Source: a virus (Duplodnaviria; Heunggongvirae; Uroviricota; Caudoviricetes). Taken from it: 9,063 nt of DNA. Of the stretch, positions 654 to 6,853 are shown piece by piece. Both the position numbers and the translations under genes were made by a program. The notes beneath the pieces were generated by a model that saw nothing but the letters and a program-made list of their open reading frames with translations, ran no database searches and was not told where the DNA came from. How positions within the stretch are numbered: position 1 is the first letter of the stretch; every line of letters starts with the position of its first letter. The stretch lies in the IMG/VR virus record IMGVR_UViG_3300029121_000075; one strand, given 5' to 3'.

Positions 654-1736
654 TTAGAACTGGTAAACCATACCTACAGCAACGATATCATCGGTAGCAA
701 CGCCAGATGCTTTCGTGAAATCGCTCTTATCAATCAGGTTGATTTTGTAGTCAACAAAAGTGGACATATTTTTGTTGAAGTAATAGGTTGCACCTACATC
801 AACATATTCAACCAGGTCCTGATCACCCCAAACACCCAAGTCTTTTCCTTTAGAATGCAGGTAAGCAACGGATGGACGCAGGCCGAAGTCGAACTGATAT
901 TGTGCAACAGCTTCGAAGTTTTGTGCTTTGTTGGCAATATGGTTATTACCAAAAACAGTCATGTTCTGGGTTTCAGAATAGGTGGTGGCCAGATAGATGT
1001 TGTTCGCATCATATTTCAGACCAGCTGCCCATACTTCAGCATTTTGACCAGAAGCATTCAGACCGTTGTTACCGTAGATAACCTGATTATTAGTGCGATC
1101 AGATTTAGCATAGGTTGCACCCACGCCGAATCCTTCATACTCATAAGTAGTTGAGAAACCGAAACCATCGCCATTAGCTTCAGTTACTTCATTTCGGTCA
1201 TTTTTGCCCTGATACTGAGCTGCAAAGTTCAGGCCATCAACCAGACCAAAGAAGTCGTTGTTACGATAAGTTGCAACACCTGTGGTGCGACCAGTCATGA
1301 ATACATCTGTTTGGGTCCAGGTATCGCCACCGAATTCTGGCAGAACGTCAGTCCACGCACCGATGTCGTATGCTACACCGTAGTTACGGCCGTAATCGAT
1401 TGAGCCGTAGTCACCGAATTTCAGGCCTGCAAATGCAAGACGGGTTTTGTCTTTGGAGGAACCTTGAGATTCAGCGCGGTTGCCTTTGAATTCATATTCC
1501 CACTGACCGAAACCAGTCAGTTGATCGTTGATTTGGGTTTCACCTTTGAAGCCAAGACGGGCATAAGTAGTATCACCATCATCTGCATCATTAGAGGAGA
1601 AGTAGTGCTTAGCATTAACTTTCCCGTACAGATCCAGCTTGTTACTGTCTTTATTATAAATTTCAGCTGCCTGAGCAGACATCGCCATCAGTACTGATGC
1701 AGCTACAGCAGAAATTGCCACTGTTAATTTTTTCAT
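654..1736 (-). CDS. nmpC: Outer-membrane general porin, OmpC/OmpF/PhoE family (prophage-borne NmpC/Lc/OmpD type)
   Basis: 360-aa ORF. N-terminal signal peptide [23 protein letters not shown] then AEIYNK. Porin hallmarks [32 protein letters not shown], and C-terminal aromatic end ...VGMVYQF. Placement between Q and the holin on the opposite strand matches DLP12 nmpC and phage PA-2 lc. Confidence 0.92.
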
Positions 1737-4130: not shown

Positions 4131-4243
4131 TTGTTATAATTTTATTATTTGTACCTCTTGAGATTTCCTTGTTGGTTTTTCTCTCTGATATTTTTTTTCG
4201 GACCATTCTGCCCAAGGGCTAACTTCTTCAAAAGGTAATAATG
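4131..4243 (+). promoter_or_regulatory. Candidate promoter and 5' UTR of the cold-shock gene
   Basis: Extended -10 TGTTATAAT at 4132-4140 in an AT-rich upstream region. UTR segment GCCCAAGGGC...AAAGGTAATA resembles the cspA upstream box plus SD. No transcript data. Confidence 0.3.
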
Positions 4244-4456
4244 ATGTCTAACAAAATGACTGGTTTAGTGAAATGGTTTAACCCTGAAAAAGGTTTTGGT
4301 TTCATCACGCCGAAAGATGGTAGCAAAGATGTGTTTGTGCATTTCTCAGCTATTCAGAGCAACGATTTCAAAACGTTAACTGAGAATCAGGAAGTCGAAT
4401 TTGGTATTGAGAACGGACCTAAAGGCCCTGCAGCTGTTCATGTAGTGACACTTTGA
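4244..4456 (+). CDS. cspI: Cold-shock protein, CspA family (CspI-like)
   Basis: 70 aa [38 protein letters not shown]... with RNP1 (KGFGFI) and RNP2 (VFVHF) motifs. SD AAAGG upstream. The ORF track begins one codon earlier at ATG 4241. Confidence 0.92.
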
Positions 4457-4958: not shown

Positions 4959-5130
4959 TTTGATTCTAATGCATTGATAATAAATGATAATCATCTTTAT
5001 CTGTTTGTGTGAAATTTAGACCGTCGTATGTTGATTATTGCGATGTTTCATCTTATCTTTTATACGTTTGCTCCATATAATTGACACTACTGTGTACCAG
5101 GACAGTCATAACAGACTAAAAGAGGAAATG

Positions 5131-5304
5131 ATGAACATTGAAGAGTTAAAAACAAAAACAGAAGCAGATATTTCTGAATATATAACAAAAAAAATCATTG
5201 AGCTTAAGAAAAAGACCGGGAAAGAAGTTACCAGTATCCAGTTTACTGCACGGGAAAAAATGACTGGTCTTGAAAGCTATGATATCAAGATTGATTTAAT
5301 CTAG
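5131..5304 (+). CDS. gnsB: GnsA/GnsB-family small protein (57 aa)
   Basis: MNIEELK...KTGKEV..I.FTAREKMTGLESYD.KI is the Gns family signature. SD GAGG at 5122-5125. The TTG-initiated extension back to 5038 in the ORF track is not supported. Confidence 0.85.
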   Translation: MNIEELKTKTEADISEYITKKIIELKKKTGKEVTSIQFTAREKMTGLESYDIKIDLI

Positions 5305-5366
5305 CATGTTTATAGTATTAGCATCAATTTCTCATCAGATGCTATTCAACAATACAAATTACCCAT

Positions 5367-5392
5367 AAACCTCGTTTTTACGGGGTTTTGTT
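5367..5392 (+). terminator. Candidate intrinsic terminator downstream of the gnsB-like gene
   Basis: Hairpin CCUCG-UUUUUA-CGGGG (5370-5385), extendable by A:U pairs, followed by UUUUGUUAUAUUU. Confidence 0.35.
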
Positions 5393-5599
5393 ATATTTAA
5401 ACATTACCGAATAGATATAAATCTCGATTGTCGATGGTATTGGTTGTGTGACAATACCTAGTCTTTCCGGTATGCCTGAAGAGAATACAAACGACAGATT
5501 ATGTAAGGGAAACGCGCTGAAACTTTCACTCTTTCATGCTGAGTGATTTGACGTTATATTTTTAGCCGCAAGTGAAGAGCAAACGAATGGAGCGACAAA

Positions 5600-5806
5600 A
5601 TGCATAAAGATCAATACACTGATGCCCCCTCCCAGGAGCAGGTTCGTGTAAAAACTATGCTTAATAGCACCATTTCGATGGGTTACCCGGATGTTGTAAT
5701 TGCATGTATAGAACATCAAGTATCTCTGGAAGCATTCAGGGCAATTGAGGCCGCGTTAGTAAAGCACGATAAGAATACGAAGGATTATTCCCTGGTGGTT
5801 GACTGA
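5600..5806 (+). CDS. Hypothetical protein (68 aa), orphan ORF upstream of cos
   Basis: ATG preceded by GGAG at 5589-5592 (7-nt spacer). No transmembrane segment or recognisable motif. Positionally equivalent to the ydfO region of Qin, but I cannot confirm homology. Confidence 0.5.
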
Positions 5807-6175
5807 TCACCATAACTGCTAACCATTCTGACCATTTCACAAGTGACAGAGTCAATATCGTATTCTGTCACTGTAAGGCTAATACAGTACTGCAATTCAA
5901 CTACAGCAATGCCTCGTATTTAGGTGAATTTACAATATCGTCCAGTTCGGATGCCGGCTGCATTTCTGAAGATAAGGCATTTCGGTTCGCGTATTTTCCC
6001 CTCATGCTCGTCAGTCCTGCGCGTAGTAAGAAACAGGACACTCACACTAATTTGTGTGGGCATGCTGTGATGTCCTTCTGAATTATCCCCATGCCATTAT
6101 GTAACGCTCTGTTTCAGATGCTCGTCACGGTTGTCAGGCTGTCGGGTCCTCCCAGTGGGGGTCCCTGCCACGGGG

Positions 6176-6200
6176 CGGGAGCGTCGCGGAAAAAGGCTAG
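6176..6200. other. cosN-like cohesive-end site (terminase nicking site); predicted 12-nt overhang GGGCGGGAGCGT at 6183-6194
   Basis: ACG-GGGCGGGAGCGT-CGCGG aligns ungapped with lambda cosN ACG-GGGCGGCGACCT-CGCGG (13 of 17 core positions identical). Downstream GCTAGTTTTTGAAATTTC...TTCGTCAT parallels lambda GCTATTTATGAAAATTTTC...TTCGTCAT. Lies about 165 bp upstream of the small terminase start, as in lambda. Confidence 0.55.
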
Positions 6201-6237
6201 TTTTTGAAATTTCATTCGTCATCACCACCACTGTAAT

Positions 6238-6265
6238 AGATTGATATTACAGTGGTTTTATTTTT
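6238..6265. repeat. Perfect 11-bp inverted repeat with 6-bp spacer inside the AT-rich cosB-like region
   Basis: CCACTGTAATA-GATTGA-TATTACAGTGG read directly, followed by TTTTATTTTTATGG. Possible terminase small-subunit or IHF binding site, or an RNA hairpin. Confidence 0.8.
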
Positions 6266-6358
6266 ATGGTGTCGATTTTGATTGTTTTTTGTTCATCACT
6301 AACACCGTTTGCCTAAAGTTGTTCGCGAGATGCATGTTTAAAACATTCTGGAGCGGGT

Positions 6359-6853
6359 ATGGATCGAGAGTTAAAAAATCTGACGCTGAATATCAGTCAA
6401 CTGGCGGCACTGTCAGGTGTACATCGCCAGACTGCTGCGGCAAGGCTGCAAAATCTACCCGTTGCAGGGGGGCATGAAAGCAACCTCAAGCTTTATCGGG
6501 TGGTTGATATTGTGTCGGCATTTCTGGCATTGCCACCGCCGGTTGCAGAAGGCGAAATGGACGCGCATGAGCGCAAAGCCTGGTATCAGTCTGAACGTGA
6601 GCGTCTTAAGTTCGAACAGGAAACGGCACAACTCATTCCGGCCAGTGATGTCAGACGGGAGTTTGCCATCTGGGCAAAAGCGGTCGTGCAGGTGCTGGAG
6701 ACATTACCGGATATTCTGGAACGTGACTGCGGTCTGCAGCCTGCCGCTGTGAGCCGTGTTCAGTCCATTATTGATGATCTGCGCGATCAGATAGCCCTGC
6801 GGGTGACTGAAGCAGGTGCGGATGATGAGGAGGAATTACAGCAGGAGGAGTAA
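6359..6853 (+). CDS. Terminase small subunit (Nu1-like, winged-HTH DNA-binding)
   Basis: 164 aa. N-terminal HTH-like LNISQLAALSGVHRQTAAARLQNLPVAGG parallels lambda Nu1 (QLADIFGASIRTIQNWQEQGMPVLRGGG). Acidic C-terminus. SD GGAG 5 nt upstream. Stop overlaps the terL ATG (TAATG). Confidence 0.8.
   Translation: MDRELKNLTLNISQLAALSGVHRQTAAARLQNLPVAGGHESNLKLYRVVDIVSAFLALPPPVAEGEMDAHERKAWYQSERERLKFEQETAQLIPASDVRREFAIWAKAVVQVLETLPDILERDCGLQPAAVSRVQSIIDDLRDQIALRVTEAGADDEEELQQEE

What the first reader, a model, noticed from the sequence alone, without database searches (positions are those of the whole stretch)
6238..6279. Perfect 11-bp palindrome plus T-tract between cosN and terS
CCACTGTAATA-GATTGA-TATTACAGTGG followed by TTTTATTTTTATGG is the strongest dyad symmetry in the window. 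In lambda this interval holds direct R-site repeats and an IHF site, so a single perfect palindrome suggests a different terminase-recognition architecture, or an RNA hairpin attenuating read-through into the terminase genes.
Basis: seen in the sequence. Interest (0 to 1): 0.4.

Follow-up and report, generated by a model that had tools for sequence, protein, structure and literature searches.

The report
Palindrome over cos-site IHF bend
The palindrome plus T-run lies inside a prophage DNA-packaging site, over what looks like the binding site for the host bending protein IHF, so it is mostly an ordinary lambda-like feature, but the palindrome itself varies unusually fast between strains.

Summary
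The dyad is real, but it lies at 6227-6256 (perfect 12-bp arms, 6-nt loop) with the T-run at 6256-6265, about 10 nt left of the reported coordinates. It sits 55-84 bp inside the left cohesive end (cosN 6173-6184, one base different from Gifsy-1's), which is where lambda has its IHF site I1.

Its centre is a perfect IHF core (TATCAATCTATTA, minus strand, 6234-6246). The T-run is where IHF sites carry their A/T-rich element. (CAY)n blocks flank it in a direct/inverted/direct order, like lambda R3-I1-R2-R1.

The IHF core recurs at the same place and orientation in relatives whose TerS is only 42-70% identical. The palindrome does not, and a sister phage (PhiR47_1) lacks it. So a novel palindromic terminase-recognition architecture is not supported. 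A plus-strand terminator is possible but has only pattern-level support.

One result was unexpected. Among prophages with identical TerS, the dyad is a hypervariable island: pi 0.126 against 0.02 at flanks and synonymous sites, and up to 7 differences in 43 nt between copies whose 638-nt flanks are identical. The window's perfect form is a rare haplotype. Template-switch mutagenesis is a plausible but untested cause.

The parts
6144..6150 (+). cosQ-like heptamer GGGTCCT, 23-29 nt upstream of the nick
   Evidence: The same heptamer lies at the equivalent place in the right ends of lambda and Gifsy-1. It is nearly invariant in close relatives.
6173..6184 (+). cosN: predicted 12-nt 5' cohesive end GGGCGGGAGCGT
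   Evidence: It aligns with lambda GGGCGGCGACCT, and the flanking ACG and CGCGG are conserved. The cdtI and Tritos records start exactly with this 12-mer. It differs by one base from Gifsy-1's GGGCGGCAGCGT.
6185..6219 (+). Conserved block CGCGGAAAAAGGCTAGTTTTTGAAATTTCATTCGT, at the position of lambda I2
   Evidence: Almost invariant in 74 close variants. Conserved as AAAACGGCTAGTTTTT in distant relatives.
6220..6231 (+). (CAY)4 run CATCACCACCAC, the putative R3-equivalent TerS site (bp 48-59 from the left end); overlaps the left arm of the dyad
   Evidence: A (CAY)3-4 run is conserved at this place across Enterobacterales relatives. Lambda R3 is at bp 50-65 (PMC9026076). Assignment as a TerS site is inferred.
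6227..6256 (.). The palindrome: arms 6227-6238 and 6245-6256, loop 6239-6244
6234..6246 (-). Perfect IHF core consensus TATCAATCTATTA (WATCAANNNNTTR), bp 62-74 from the left end; I1 equivalent
   Evidence: A core lies at the same strand and position in lambda (bp 79-91, 1 mismatch) and cdtI (bp 64-76, perfect). It sits at a fixed register in 22 of 50 distinct relatives with 1 mismatch or fewer. TAAT and ATTGATATT are invariant within the hypervariable island.
6256..6265 (+). T-run TTTTATTTTT: the A/T-rich 5' element of the IHF site on the minus strand, or the U-tract of a terminator on the plus strand
   Evidence: On the minus strand it ends 9 nt upstream of the core. In lambda attP H' the A6 tract ends 8 nt upstream. 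It is invariant in close variants. A T-rich tract is retained in L084 and PhiR47_1, which lack the hairpin.
6228..6268 (.). Hypervariable island; hottest columns 6229, 6238, 6239, 6254, 6255 and 6266-6268
6266..6275 (-). ATGGTGTCGA: inverted (CAY)2 copy plus the conserved TGTCGA block; putative R2 equivalent
   Evidence: Conserved as (A/G)TGATGTCGAA in relatives and as GATGATGAT in VT1-Sakai. It pairs with 6220-6224 in the fold. Function inferred.
6291..6299 (+). GTTCATCAC: direct (CAY)2 copy; putative R1 equivalent
   Evidence: The TGTTCA(C/T)CATCAT block is conserved in relatives, where it overlaps the terS start codon. Function inferred.
6359..6853 (+). terS, small terminase subunit (DUF1441, 164 aa)
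   Evidence: Pfam PF07278, E 2.7e-41. The model has an N-terminal beta-alpha-alpha-wing-alpha domain. Weak fold and sequence resemblance to MerR-type/gpNu1-type winged helix.
6853..8955 (+). terL, large terminase subunit of the gpA type (700 aa)
   Evidence: Pfam GpA_ATPase and GpA_nuclease.

Best explanation
The palindrome plus T-run is the IHF-bending module (the I1 equivalent) of a lambda-like complex cosB. Host IHF binds the minus-strand core TATCAATCTATTA (6234-6246) together with the A/T-rich tract 9 nt upstream of it (6256-6265 on the plus strand) and bends the DNA sharply. The bend brings the (CAY)n block on the left (6220-6231, at the R3 position) next to its inverted copy on the right (6266-6275, at the R2 position). 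A dimer of the winged-helix TerS can then dock and position TerL to nick cosN, 50-90 bp away. The dyad symmetry is not the recognition signal. It is a lineage-specific, fast-changing overlay on this spacer. The window's perfect 12-bp form is a rare haplotype, plausibly made by template-switch correction of an imperfect inverted repeat. It may also act as a terminator for RNA polymerase that is not Q-modified. Shown here: the sequence features, their positions, and their conservation or variation. Inferred: IHF binding, TerS binding to (CAY)n, and the mutational origin of the symmetry.
For: (1) Position. cosN at 6173-6184 is homologous to lambda's, and two phage records start there. The dyad therefore spans bp 55-84 and the IHF core bp 62-74. 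Lambda's only IHF core with 1 mismatch or fewer lies on the same strand at bp 79-91 (I1), and cdtI's perfect core at bp 64-76. (2) Core statistics. There are 2 perfect cores in the 9-kb window against 0.56 expected, and one sits exactly at the dyad centre. The A/T tract is spaced 9 nt from the core, against 8 nt in lambda attP H'. (3) Conservation follows the IHF consensus and not the dyad. Inside the hypervariable island, TAAT, ATTGATATT and the T-run are invariant, while the NNNN positions (6238-6239) and the stretch between core and A-tract (6249-6255) vary most. L082, L084 and PhiR47_1 lose the dyad but keep TTGAT and a T-rich tract. (4) Family-wide pattern. A core with 1 mismatch or fewer sits at a fixed register after the (CAY)n run in 22 of 50 distinct loci, against 1 of 50 in the opposite orientation. 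The core persists in cdtI/Tritos, where TerS is 42% identical and the R3-position element is a different repeat, (GGC)n. That is the behaviour expected of a host-factor site. (5) Layout. The (CAY)n direct / (RTG)n inverted / (CAY)n direct order around the core matches the published R3-I1-R2-R1 plan with R2 inverted (PMC4669245 and PMC9026076). (6) The TerS N-terminus is predicted to be beta-alpha-alpha-wing-alpha, with MerR-type and Rpp/TerS-study matches, and it aligns weakly to the Gifsy-1 Nu1-type HTH. (7) The dyad is dispensable and variable: 49 versions in 85 sequences, mEp460 and 4F5 are imperfect, and PhiR47_1 has none.
Against: There are no binding data, so IHF occupancy is inferred from a consensus that is degenerate and A/T-rich. 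The IHF model does not need, and does not explain, a 12-bp perfect dyad. The conserved stem core CTGTAAT/ATTACAG extends beyond the IHF consensus positions. The (CAY)n blocks are short and of low complexity, and the R2- and R1-like copies in the window are only 6 nt of repeat, so calling them R sites is tentative. Fold matches for TerS are weak (best E 0.038, pTM 0.37). Pasteurellaceae relatives have the (CAY)n run but no IHF core. G.U mismatches outnumber A.C in the stem (50 versus 12 cells), and spacer hairpin potential recurs in other clades. Both observations hint at some selection on a plus-strand RNA or single-strand structure.
Confidence: 0.55

Rival explanations
1. Intrinsic (factor-independent) terminator or attenuator on the plus strand. 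The 12-bp hairpin followed by UUUUAUUUUU would stop RNA polymerase that lacks Q modification, for example read-through from the moron genes or the small ORF upstream. This would keep the terminase genes silent in the lysogen, while Q-modified polymerase reads through during lytic growth.
For: The consensus scan lists it as the second-ranked terminator-like site, on the plus strand only. The hairpin is -16.1 kcal/mol with 9 of 10 U after it. The minus strand has no U-run. No other terminator-like site lies between 5388 and 6227 on the plus strand. A Q gene is present at 1-465. Most variants keep an 8-12 bp stem. G.U mismatches outnumber A.C, 50 to 12 cells. Other clades carry unrelated hairpins in the same spacer, with mean z = -1.4 on the plus strand.
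Against: Pairing is kept no more than column composition predicts: 91.2% against 90.7% in shuffles, with 3 double-sided changes. Several variants break the stem, with energies of -5 to -7.5 kcal/mol. The sister clade (L084, PhiR47_1) keeps the T-rich tract but has no hairpin. The spacer hairpins of VT1-Sakai, the Citrobacter types and others are not followed by a T-run, and cdtI has no comparable dyad there. The 3' half of the loop (ATTGAT) is invariant, which a terminator does not require. By position rather than by cell, the G.U excess is only 6 against 3. There is no Rfam match.
Confidence: 0.2
2. Palindromic operator for a dimeric protein. In the first reader's version this is TerS, recognising a single symmetric site in place of lambda-type R repeats.
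For: The symmetry is perfect and well beyond chance. TerS has a predicted winged-helix domain of a kind that usually dimerises. The stem core CTGTAAT/ATTACAG is largely conserved among close variants.
Against: Prophages with 100% identical TerS carry 49 versions of the segment, and the outer arm positions are among the most variable columns. Relatives with TerS 42-86% identical have no dyad at this position, but they do share the (CAY)n blocks and the IHF core. The conserved half-sites are 15 bp apart centre to centre, which puts them on different faces of the helix. The LexA-like half-sites have the wrong spacing, CTGT-N14-ACAG against N8.
Confidence: 0.05
3. A structure-prone mutational hotspot with no sequence-specific role for the symmetry. 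The spacer between R3 and R2 tolerates change, and template switching or hairpin-associated replication errors repeatedly create, perfect and scramble short inverted repeats there.
For: Diversity peaks only at 6230-6260 within the conserved stretch 6170-6950. Pi is 0.126 with 10 of 30 multi-allelic columns, against 0.020 and 0 of 83 at terS four-fold sites. Copies with identical 638-nt flanks differ at up to 7 of 43 positions. If 7 changes fell at random among 681 sites, the chance that all land in the island is about 4e-9 (my arithmetic). The cdtI-type clade, which has no dyad over I1, shows no peak under the same sampling. The VT1-Sakai clade has its own dyad in the spacer and does show a peak. 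Template switching is reported to perfect imperfect inverted repeats and to make multi-base changes in one event (PMC8794818 and PMC5941160).
Against: Template switching homogenises the arms and does not obviously explain the hottest columns in the loop (6238-6239) or beyond the T-run (6266-6268). No loop-inversion haplotype was seen. The link between dyad and hypervariability rests on three clades. Short-patch recombination with diverged alleles was not excluded: some variants share bases with the L084 type. This explanation is compatible with the best one and is not exclusive of it.
Confidence: 0.15

Closest known systems
Lambda cosB site I1 (the IHF site between R3 and R2)
   Same: Same strand, and nearly the same distance from the left cohesive end: bp 62-74 here, bp 79-91 in lambda, which has a 12-nt insert. 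Flanked by a direct and an inverted repeat, then a third direct copy before terS. gpA-type TerL.
   Different: The core here is a perfect consensus match; lambda's has 1 mismatch. The flanking repeats are (CAY)n and unrelated to lambda's 16-bp R sequences. TerS is DUF1441, not Nu1 (Pfam). The site is embedded in a 12-bp perfect palindrome followed by a long T-run, and lambda's I1 has neither.
Lambda attP H' IHF site
   Same: Three-part anatomy: an A/T tract, then an 8-9 nt gap, then WATCAANNNNTTR.
   Different: The context is site-specific recombination rather than packaging. H' has no dyad symmetry.
Gifsy-1 cos
   Same: The cohesive end differs by one base: GGGCGGCAGCGT against GGGCGGGAGCGT. 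cosQ GGGTCCT is shared. There is a T-rich I1 region between inverted R-type repeats (PMC4669245, PMC9026076).
   Different: Gifsy-1 TerS is Nu1/21-type, only 25% identical over 93 aa, E 0.034. Its R sequences are CAGATCC-type, not (CAY)n.
Rho-independent terminators
   Same: A stem-loop of -16 kcal/mol directly followed by a run of 9 U in 10, on one strand only.
   Different: The stem is A/T-rich, with 4 G-C pairs in 12. The loop sequence is conserved while the stem ends vary. The arrangement is not conserved in sister clades. There is no evidence of a transcript end.
Quasi-palindrome (template-switch) mutation hotspots
   Same: Clustered multi-base differences confined to an inverted repeat, with both perfect and imperfect versions in the population (PMC8794818, PMC5941160).
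   Different: The hot columns extend into the loop and beyond the T-run. No direct evidence for the mechanism was obtained here.

Membership tests
Lambda-like complex cos (cosQ-cosN-cosB with R3-I1-R2-R1) | 12-nt 5' cohesive end similar to lambda's, with conserved flanking CG steps | tested here: met
   GGGCGGGAGCGT matches lambda at 8 of 12 positions, and ACG...CGCGG is conserved. The cdtI and Tritos records begin at this base. The physical ends of this particular prophage were not determined.
Lambda-like complex cos (cosQ-cosN-cosB with R3-I1-R2-R1) | Conserved cosQ heptamer upstream of cosN | tested here: met
   GGGTCCT at 6144-6150 is shared with lambda and Gifsy-1.
Lambda-like complex cos (cosQ-cosN-cosB with R3-I1-R2-R1) | IHF site between R3 and R2 | tested here: met
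   Met at the sequence level only. A perfect core at 6234-6246 lies between the (CAY)4 run and its inverted copy and is conserved in relatives. Binding was not tested.
Lambda-like complex cos (cosQ-cosN-cosB with R3-I1-R2-R1) | Three related TerS-binding repeats, the middle one inverted | tested here: inconclusive
   The order (CAY)4 at 6220-6231, inverted ATGGTG at 6266-6271 and CATCAC at 6294-6299 fits, and it is clearer in VT1-Sakai and L091. The repeats are short and of low complexity, and the repeat finder reported no direct family.
Lambda-like complex cos (cosQ-cosN-cosB with R3-I1-R2-R1) | TerS with an N-terminal winged helix-turn-helix; gpA-type TerL | tested here: inconclusive
   TerL is clearly gpA-type. 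TerS is predicted as beta-alpha-alpha-wing-alpha, with weak MerR-type and 6hn7_B matches (E 0.04 or more) and a weak alignment to Gifsy-1 TerS. A PDB sequence search found nothing.
IHF binding site | Core WATCAANNNNTTR | tested here: met
   TATCAATCTATTA with 0 mismatches.
IHF binding site | A/T-rich element about one helical turn 5' of the core | tested here: met
   AAAAATAAAA ends 9 nt upstream of the core. In attP H', A6 ends 8 nt upstream.
IHF binding site | IHF protection and bending of the DNA | not testable with these tools
   Requires EMSA, footprinting or ChIP.
Rho-independent terminator | Stable stem-loop immediately followed by a U-run on the transcribed strand | tested here: met
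Rho-independent terminator | Stem pairing maintained by compensatory change, and the hairpin plus U-run conserved in homologous loci | tested here: not met
   Pairing is 91.2% against 90.7% in shuffles, with only 3 double-sided changes. Hairpin plus T-run is absent from L084/PhiR47_1, cdtI, VT1-Sakai and the Citrobacter types.
Rho-independent terminator | Transcript 3' ends at the U-run | not testable with these tools
   Requires Term-seq or 3' RACE on a lysogen that carries this cos.
LexA (SOS) box | CTGT-N8-ACAG spacing | tested here: not met
   The half-sites resemble LexA halves, but the spacing is N14.

The most novel reading that the evidence does not exclude
The packaging site of a very common E. 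coli prophage family contains a genuinely hypermutable or diversifying 40-bp element. On this reading, the palindrome over the IHF site changes several-fold faster than synonymous sites for one of two reasons. Hairpin or cruciform formation there may provoke template switching or structure-specific processing. Alternatively, variation in IHF/terminase assembly at cosB may be selected, for example in competition among co-resident prophages or cos-hijacking satellites. The recurrent, unrelated hairpins in the same spacer of other clades would then be products of the same process.
Probability: 0.2. Interest if true: 0.6.

Novelty: new variant of a known kind. Interest (0 to 1): 0.4.

Why it matters
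About a quarter of complete E. coli genomes carry this cos type (1,466 of 5,426), and RefSeq annotates nothing in the interval. Three things follow. First, reading it as a lambda-like R3-I1-R2-R1 cosB with (CAY)n repeats and a perfect IHF core gives a testable map of packaging recognition for the DUF1441 small-terminase family. That family includes Stx- and Cdt-converting phages, and I found no published cosB description for it. Second, it warns against calling every hairpin plus T-run a terminator, or every palindrome a protein operator. Third, the hypervariable island inside an otherwise near-invariant packaging site is a natural case for studying palindrome-associated mutagenesis, or selection on a host-factor site, in finished genomes.

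Tried and rejected
- **TerS operator.** Rejected because the dyad varies while TerS stays identical, and because it is absent in relatives.
- **LexA box.** The half-sites look LexA-like, but the spacing is N14, not N8.
- **Sigma-70 promoter TTGATA-18-TATGGT at 6241-6270.** Its -10 hexamer lies in the hypervariable columns 6266-6268 and is destroyed in many variants.
- **Known RNA family.** No Rfam match in 5300-6500 at E up to 1.
- **Solved homologue of TerS by sequence.** None found.
- **Covariation as proof of an RNA stem.** Weak. The G.U over A.C excess is suggestive only.
- **Hypervariability as a general property of I1 sites.** Rejected by the cdtI-type control. The VT1-Sakai clade does show a peak, but it also has its own spacer dyad.
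- **Hypervariability as an assembly artefact.** Unlikely. The same haplotypes recur in independent assemblies, isolated phages differ from one another, and finished genomes mostly fall at 95-99% identity.
- **Family-wide hairpin potential of the R3-R2 spacer.** Only moderate: mean z is -1.4 against -0.7 for a control segment, and the loci are not independent.
- **terL synonymous baseline.** The first attempt was confounded by mosaic or misaligned loci, so terS four-fold sites and a sliding window were used.
- **Failed call.** One MAFFT run timed out.
- **Gifsy-1 as the same TerS family.** Rejected: it is Nu1/21-type.

Full report
**Observation.** The palindrome exists, but it is about 10 nt to the left of the reported coordinates. 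The arms are ACCACTGTAATA (6227-6238) and TATTACAGTGGT (6245-6256): 12 bp, perfectly complementary, with a 6-nt loop. TTTTATTTTT follows at 6256-6265. It is the longest perfect inverted repeat in the window. Only 2 of 300 first-order Markov simulations reached 12-bp arms. The plus-strand RNA fold of the 61-nt context is -21.7 kcal/mol (z = -5.2), and the hairpin alone is -16.1 kcal/mol. A simple scan lists it as terminator-like on the plus strand only.

**Context.** The window is the late region of a lambdoid prophage. It holds Q (1-465), a porin gene on the minus strand, a lysis cassette, cold-shock and GnsAB morons, then a DUF1441 small terminase (6359-6853) and a gpA-type large terminase (6853-8955). 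The sequence ACG|GGGCGGGAGCGT|CGCGG at 6170-6189 aligns with lambda's ACG|GGGCGGCGACCT|CGCGG. The GenBank records of phages cdtI and Tritos begin exactly with GGGCGGGAGCGT. Gifsy-1's end differs by one base, and the cosQ heptamer GGGTCCT is shared. The left cohesive end is therefore at 6173, and the dyad occupies bp 55-84 of the chromosome.

**What lies at the dyad centre.** The top strand reads TAATAGATTGATA. On the minus strand this is TATCAATCTATTA, a perfect match to the IHF core WATCAANNNNTTR (6234-6246). There are two matches in the window against 0.56 expected. On that strand the A-rich tract AAAAATAAAA ends 9 nt upstream of the core; in lambda attP H' the A6 tract ends 8 nt upstream. 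Lambda's own cos has its only core with 1 mismatch or fewer on the same strand at bp 79-91, which is I1. cdtI has a perfect core at bp 64-76. According to the Feiss laboratory papers, lambda-like cosB sites are organised R3-I1-R2-R1, with R2 inverted and R3 at bp 50-65 (PMC4669245, PMC9026076). Here CATCACCACCAC occupies bp 48-59. An inverted copy within ATGGTGTCGA lies at 6266-6275, and a direct copy, GTTCATCAC, at 6291-6299.

**Relatives.** I collected 66 loci from species-representative genomes (TerS 37-100% identical), 80 close loci from IMG/VR, and named phages. Enterobacterales relatives share one layout: cosN, AAAACGGCTAGTTTTT, a (CAY)3-4 run, an IHF-like core, a variable spacer, (A/G)TGATGTCGAA, and TGTTCA(C/T)CATCAT. 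The core sits at a fixed register in the same orientation, with 0 mismatches in 7 and 1 mismatch in 15 of 50 distinct loci. In the opposite orientation only 1 of 50 has 1 mismatch or fewer. VT1-Sakai shows the plan most clearly: TCATCATCATCAT, TAACTTGTTGTTT, and the inverted GATGATGAT. In cdtI and Tritos, TerS is 42% identical and the R3-position element is a different repeat ((GGC)n), yet the core is perfect. A site that persists while terminase specificity changes behaves like a host-factor site. The palindrome is not shared. The sister clade (L084 and phage PhiR47_1, TerS 86% identical) has no dyad there but keeps TTGAT and a T-rich tract. mEp460 and mEp460_4F5 carry imperfect versions, and phi458 carries the perfect one.

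**TerS.** The AlphaFold model (mean pLDDT 78, pTM 0.37) has an N-terminal beta-alpha-alpha-wing-alpha domain. Foldseek matches are weak (best E 0.038) but are mostly MerR-type winged helices, and they include 6hn7_B from the E. coli PICI Rpp/TerS study (probability 0.99). A pairwise alignment to the Nu1-type TerS of Gifsy-1 covers the HTH segment at 25% identity (E 0.034). This fits a lambda-like docking model but does not prove it.

**The unexpected part.** The window plus 84 close loci (83 of them with TerS 99-100% identical) carry 49 different versions of the 55-nt segment 6218-6272. Nucleotide diversity is 0.126 in the dyad, with 10 of 30 columns having three or more alleles. It is 0.020 at terS four-fold sites (0 of 83 multi-allelic) and 0.016-0.020 in the flanking cos DNA. 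A sliding window shows one isolated peak at 6230-6260 inside a conserved stretch from 6170 to about 6950. Copies with identical 638-nt flanks differ at up to 7 of 43 island positions. If 7 changes fell at random among 681 sites, the chance that all land in the island is about 4e-9 (my arithmetic). Within the island the IHF consensus positions and the T-run are invariant. The hot columns are 6229-6230, 6238-6239 (the NNNN of the core), 6249-6255 (between core and A-tract) and 6266-6268. The window's perfect dyad is a minority form. Most copies have T at 6229, giving a T.G pair. Only 68 of about 1,350 complete-genome copies are 99% or more identical to the window over 6173-6358.

**Is pairing selected?** On 45 variants, 91.2% of cells pair against 90.7% in column shuffles. 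Only three cells show a change on both sides, and the covariation score is reached by 9 of 500 shuffles. G.U mismatches outnumber A.C by 50 to 12 cells, but by only 6 to 3 positions. This is weak evidence for a plus-strand RNA stem.

**Controls for the hypervariability.** The same sampling of the cdtI-type clade, which has no dyad over I1, shows no peak (pi 0.007-0.019). The VT1-Sakai clade does show a peak in the spacer between core and R2 (pi 0.317). That spacer carries its own fast-changing dyad, TTTTTAATG...CATTAAAAA. Several other relatives have unrelated dyads in the same spacer. Across 34 distinct loci the spacer folds better than shuffles: mean z is -1.4 on the plus strand, -1.1 on the minus strand and -0.7 for a control segment. 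This is a moderate tendency and the loci are not independent. Most of these hairpins lack a following T-run, so they are not generic terminators. Template switching is reported to perfect imperfect inverted repeats and to make multi-base changes in a single event (PMC8794818, PMC5941160). It is a plausible source of both the clustering and the rare perfect haplotype. I did not demonstrate it, and it does not obviously explain the hot columns in the loop or beyond the T-run.

**Verdict.** The segment is best read as the IHF-bending module of a lambda-like cosB belonging to the DUF1441/gpA terminase family. The T-run serves as the A/T element of the IHF site (confidence 0.55). A palindromic TerS operator is very unlikely. 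A plus-strand terminator remains possible, perhaps as a secondary role, with pattern-level support only. The dyad symmetry is lineage-specific, dispensable in a sister phage, and sits in a hypervariable island whose cause is unexplained. That island is the one aspect a specialist might find surprising.

Noticed in passing
L099, L086, L105, L106, L109 (about 175-195 nt upstream of terS); L235:240-259 (mEp043); L236:240-259 (VT1-Sakai): A near-perfect palindrome of the AATGATAATCATTATCATT type lies immediately upstream of cosQ in several relatives but not in the window. From memory it resembles the Fur-box consensus. Function unknown.
   Followed up: no
window 6291-6358: In relatives the R1-like block overlaps the terS start codon (GTTCACCATCATGG). 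In the window clade that ATG is gone (GTTCATCACTAAC), and terS starts about 55 nt further on, at 6359. The clade has therefore gained an extra leader between cosB and terS.
   Followed up: partly
window 6144-6172: The 20 nt between cosQ and cosN (for example CCCAGTGGGGGTCCC against CCCGGTGGGGTGGCC) are also multi-allelic (pi 0.115). This stretch marks the start of the highly mosaic right arm (pi 0.3-0.5 left of 6140).
   Followed up: partly
L237-L282 (VT1-Sakai-type cosB, spacer between the IHF core and GATGATGAT): A second hypervariable spacer carries its own A/T-rich dyad, TTTTTAATG...CATTAAAAA, with apparent G.T to G-C changes.
   Followed up: partly
window 6173-6358, compared against complete E. 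coli genomes: This cos type is present in 1,466 of 5,426 complete genomes, with up to 5 places per genome. RefSeq annotates no feature over it.
   Followed up: partly
window 6333 (equivalent position in JQ182728 and MF807953): The mEp460 and Ayreon GenBank records end inside the cosB-terS interval and not at cosN, so those records are arbitrarily linearised.
   Followed up: no
window 654-1736 (minus strand), 4241-4456, 5038-5304, 5367-5388: Cargo genes lie in the late region: a porin between Q and the lysis genes, then a cold-shock protein and a GnsAB-family gene followed by a terminator-like hairpin.
   Followed up: no
window 6153-6162 and 6224-6233: CAGTGGGGGT to the left of cosN is 90% complementary to ACCACCACTG at the start of the dyad, so CAGTGG/CCACTG occurs on both sides of cosN. 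This is probably chance; it was not tested.
   Followed up: no
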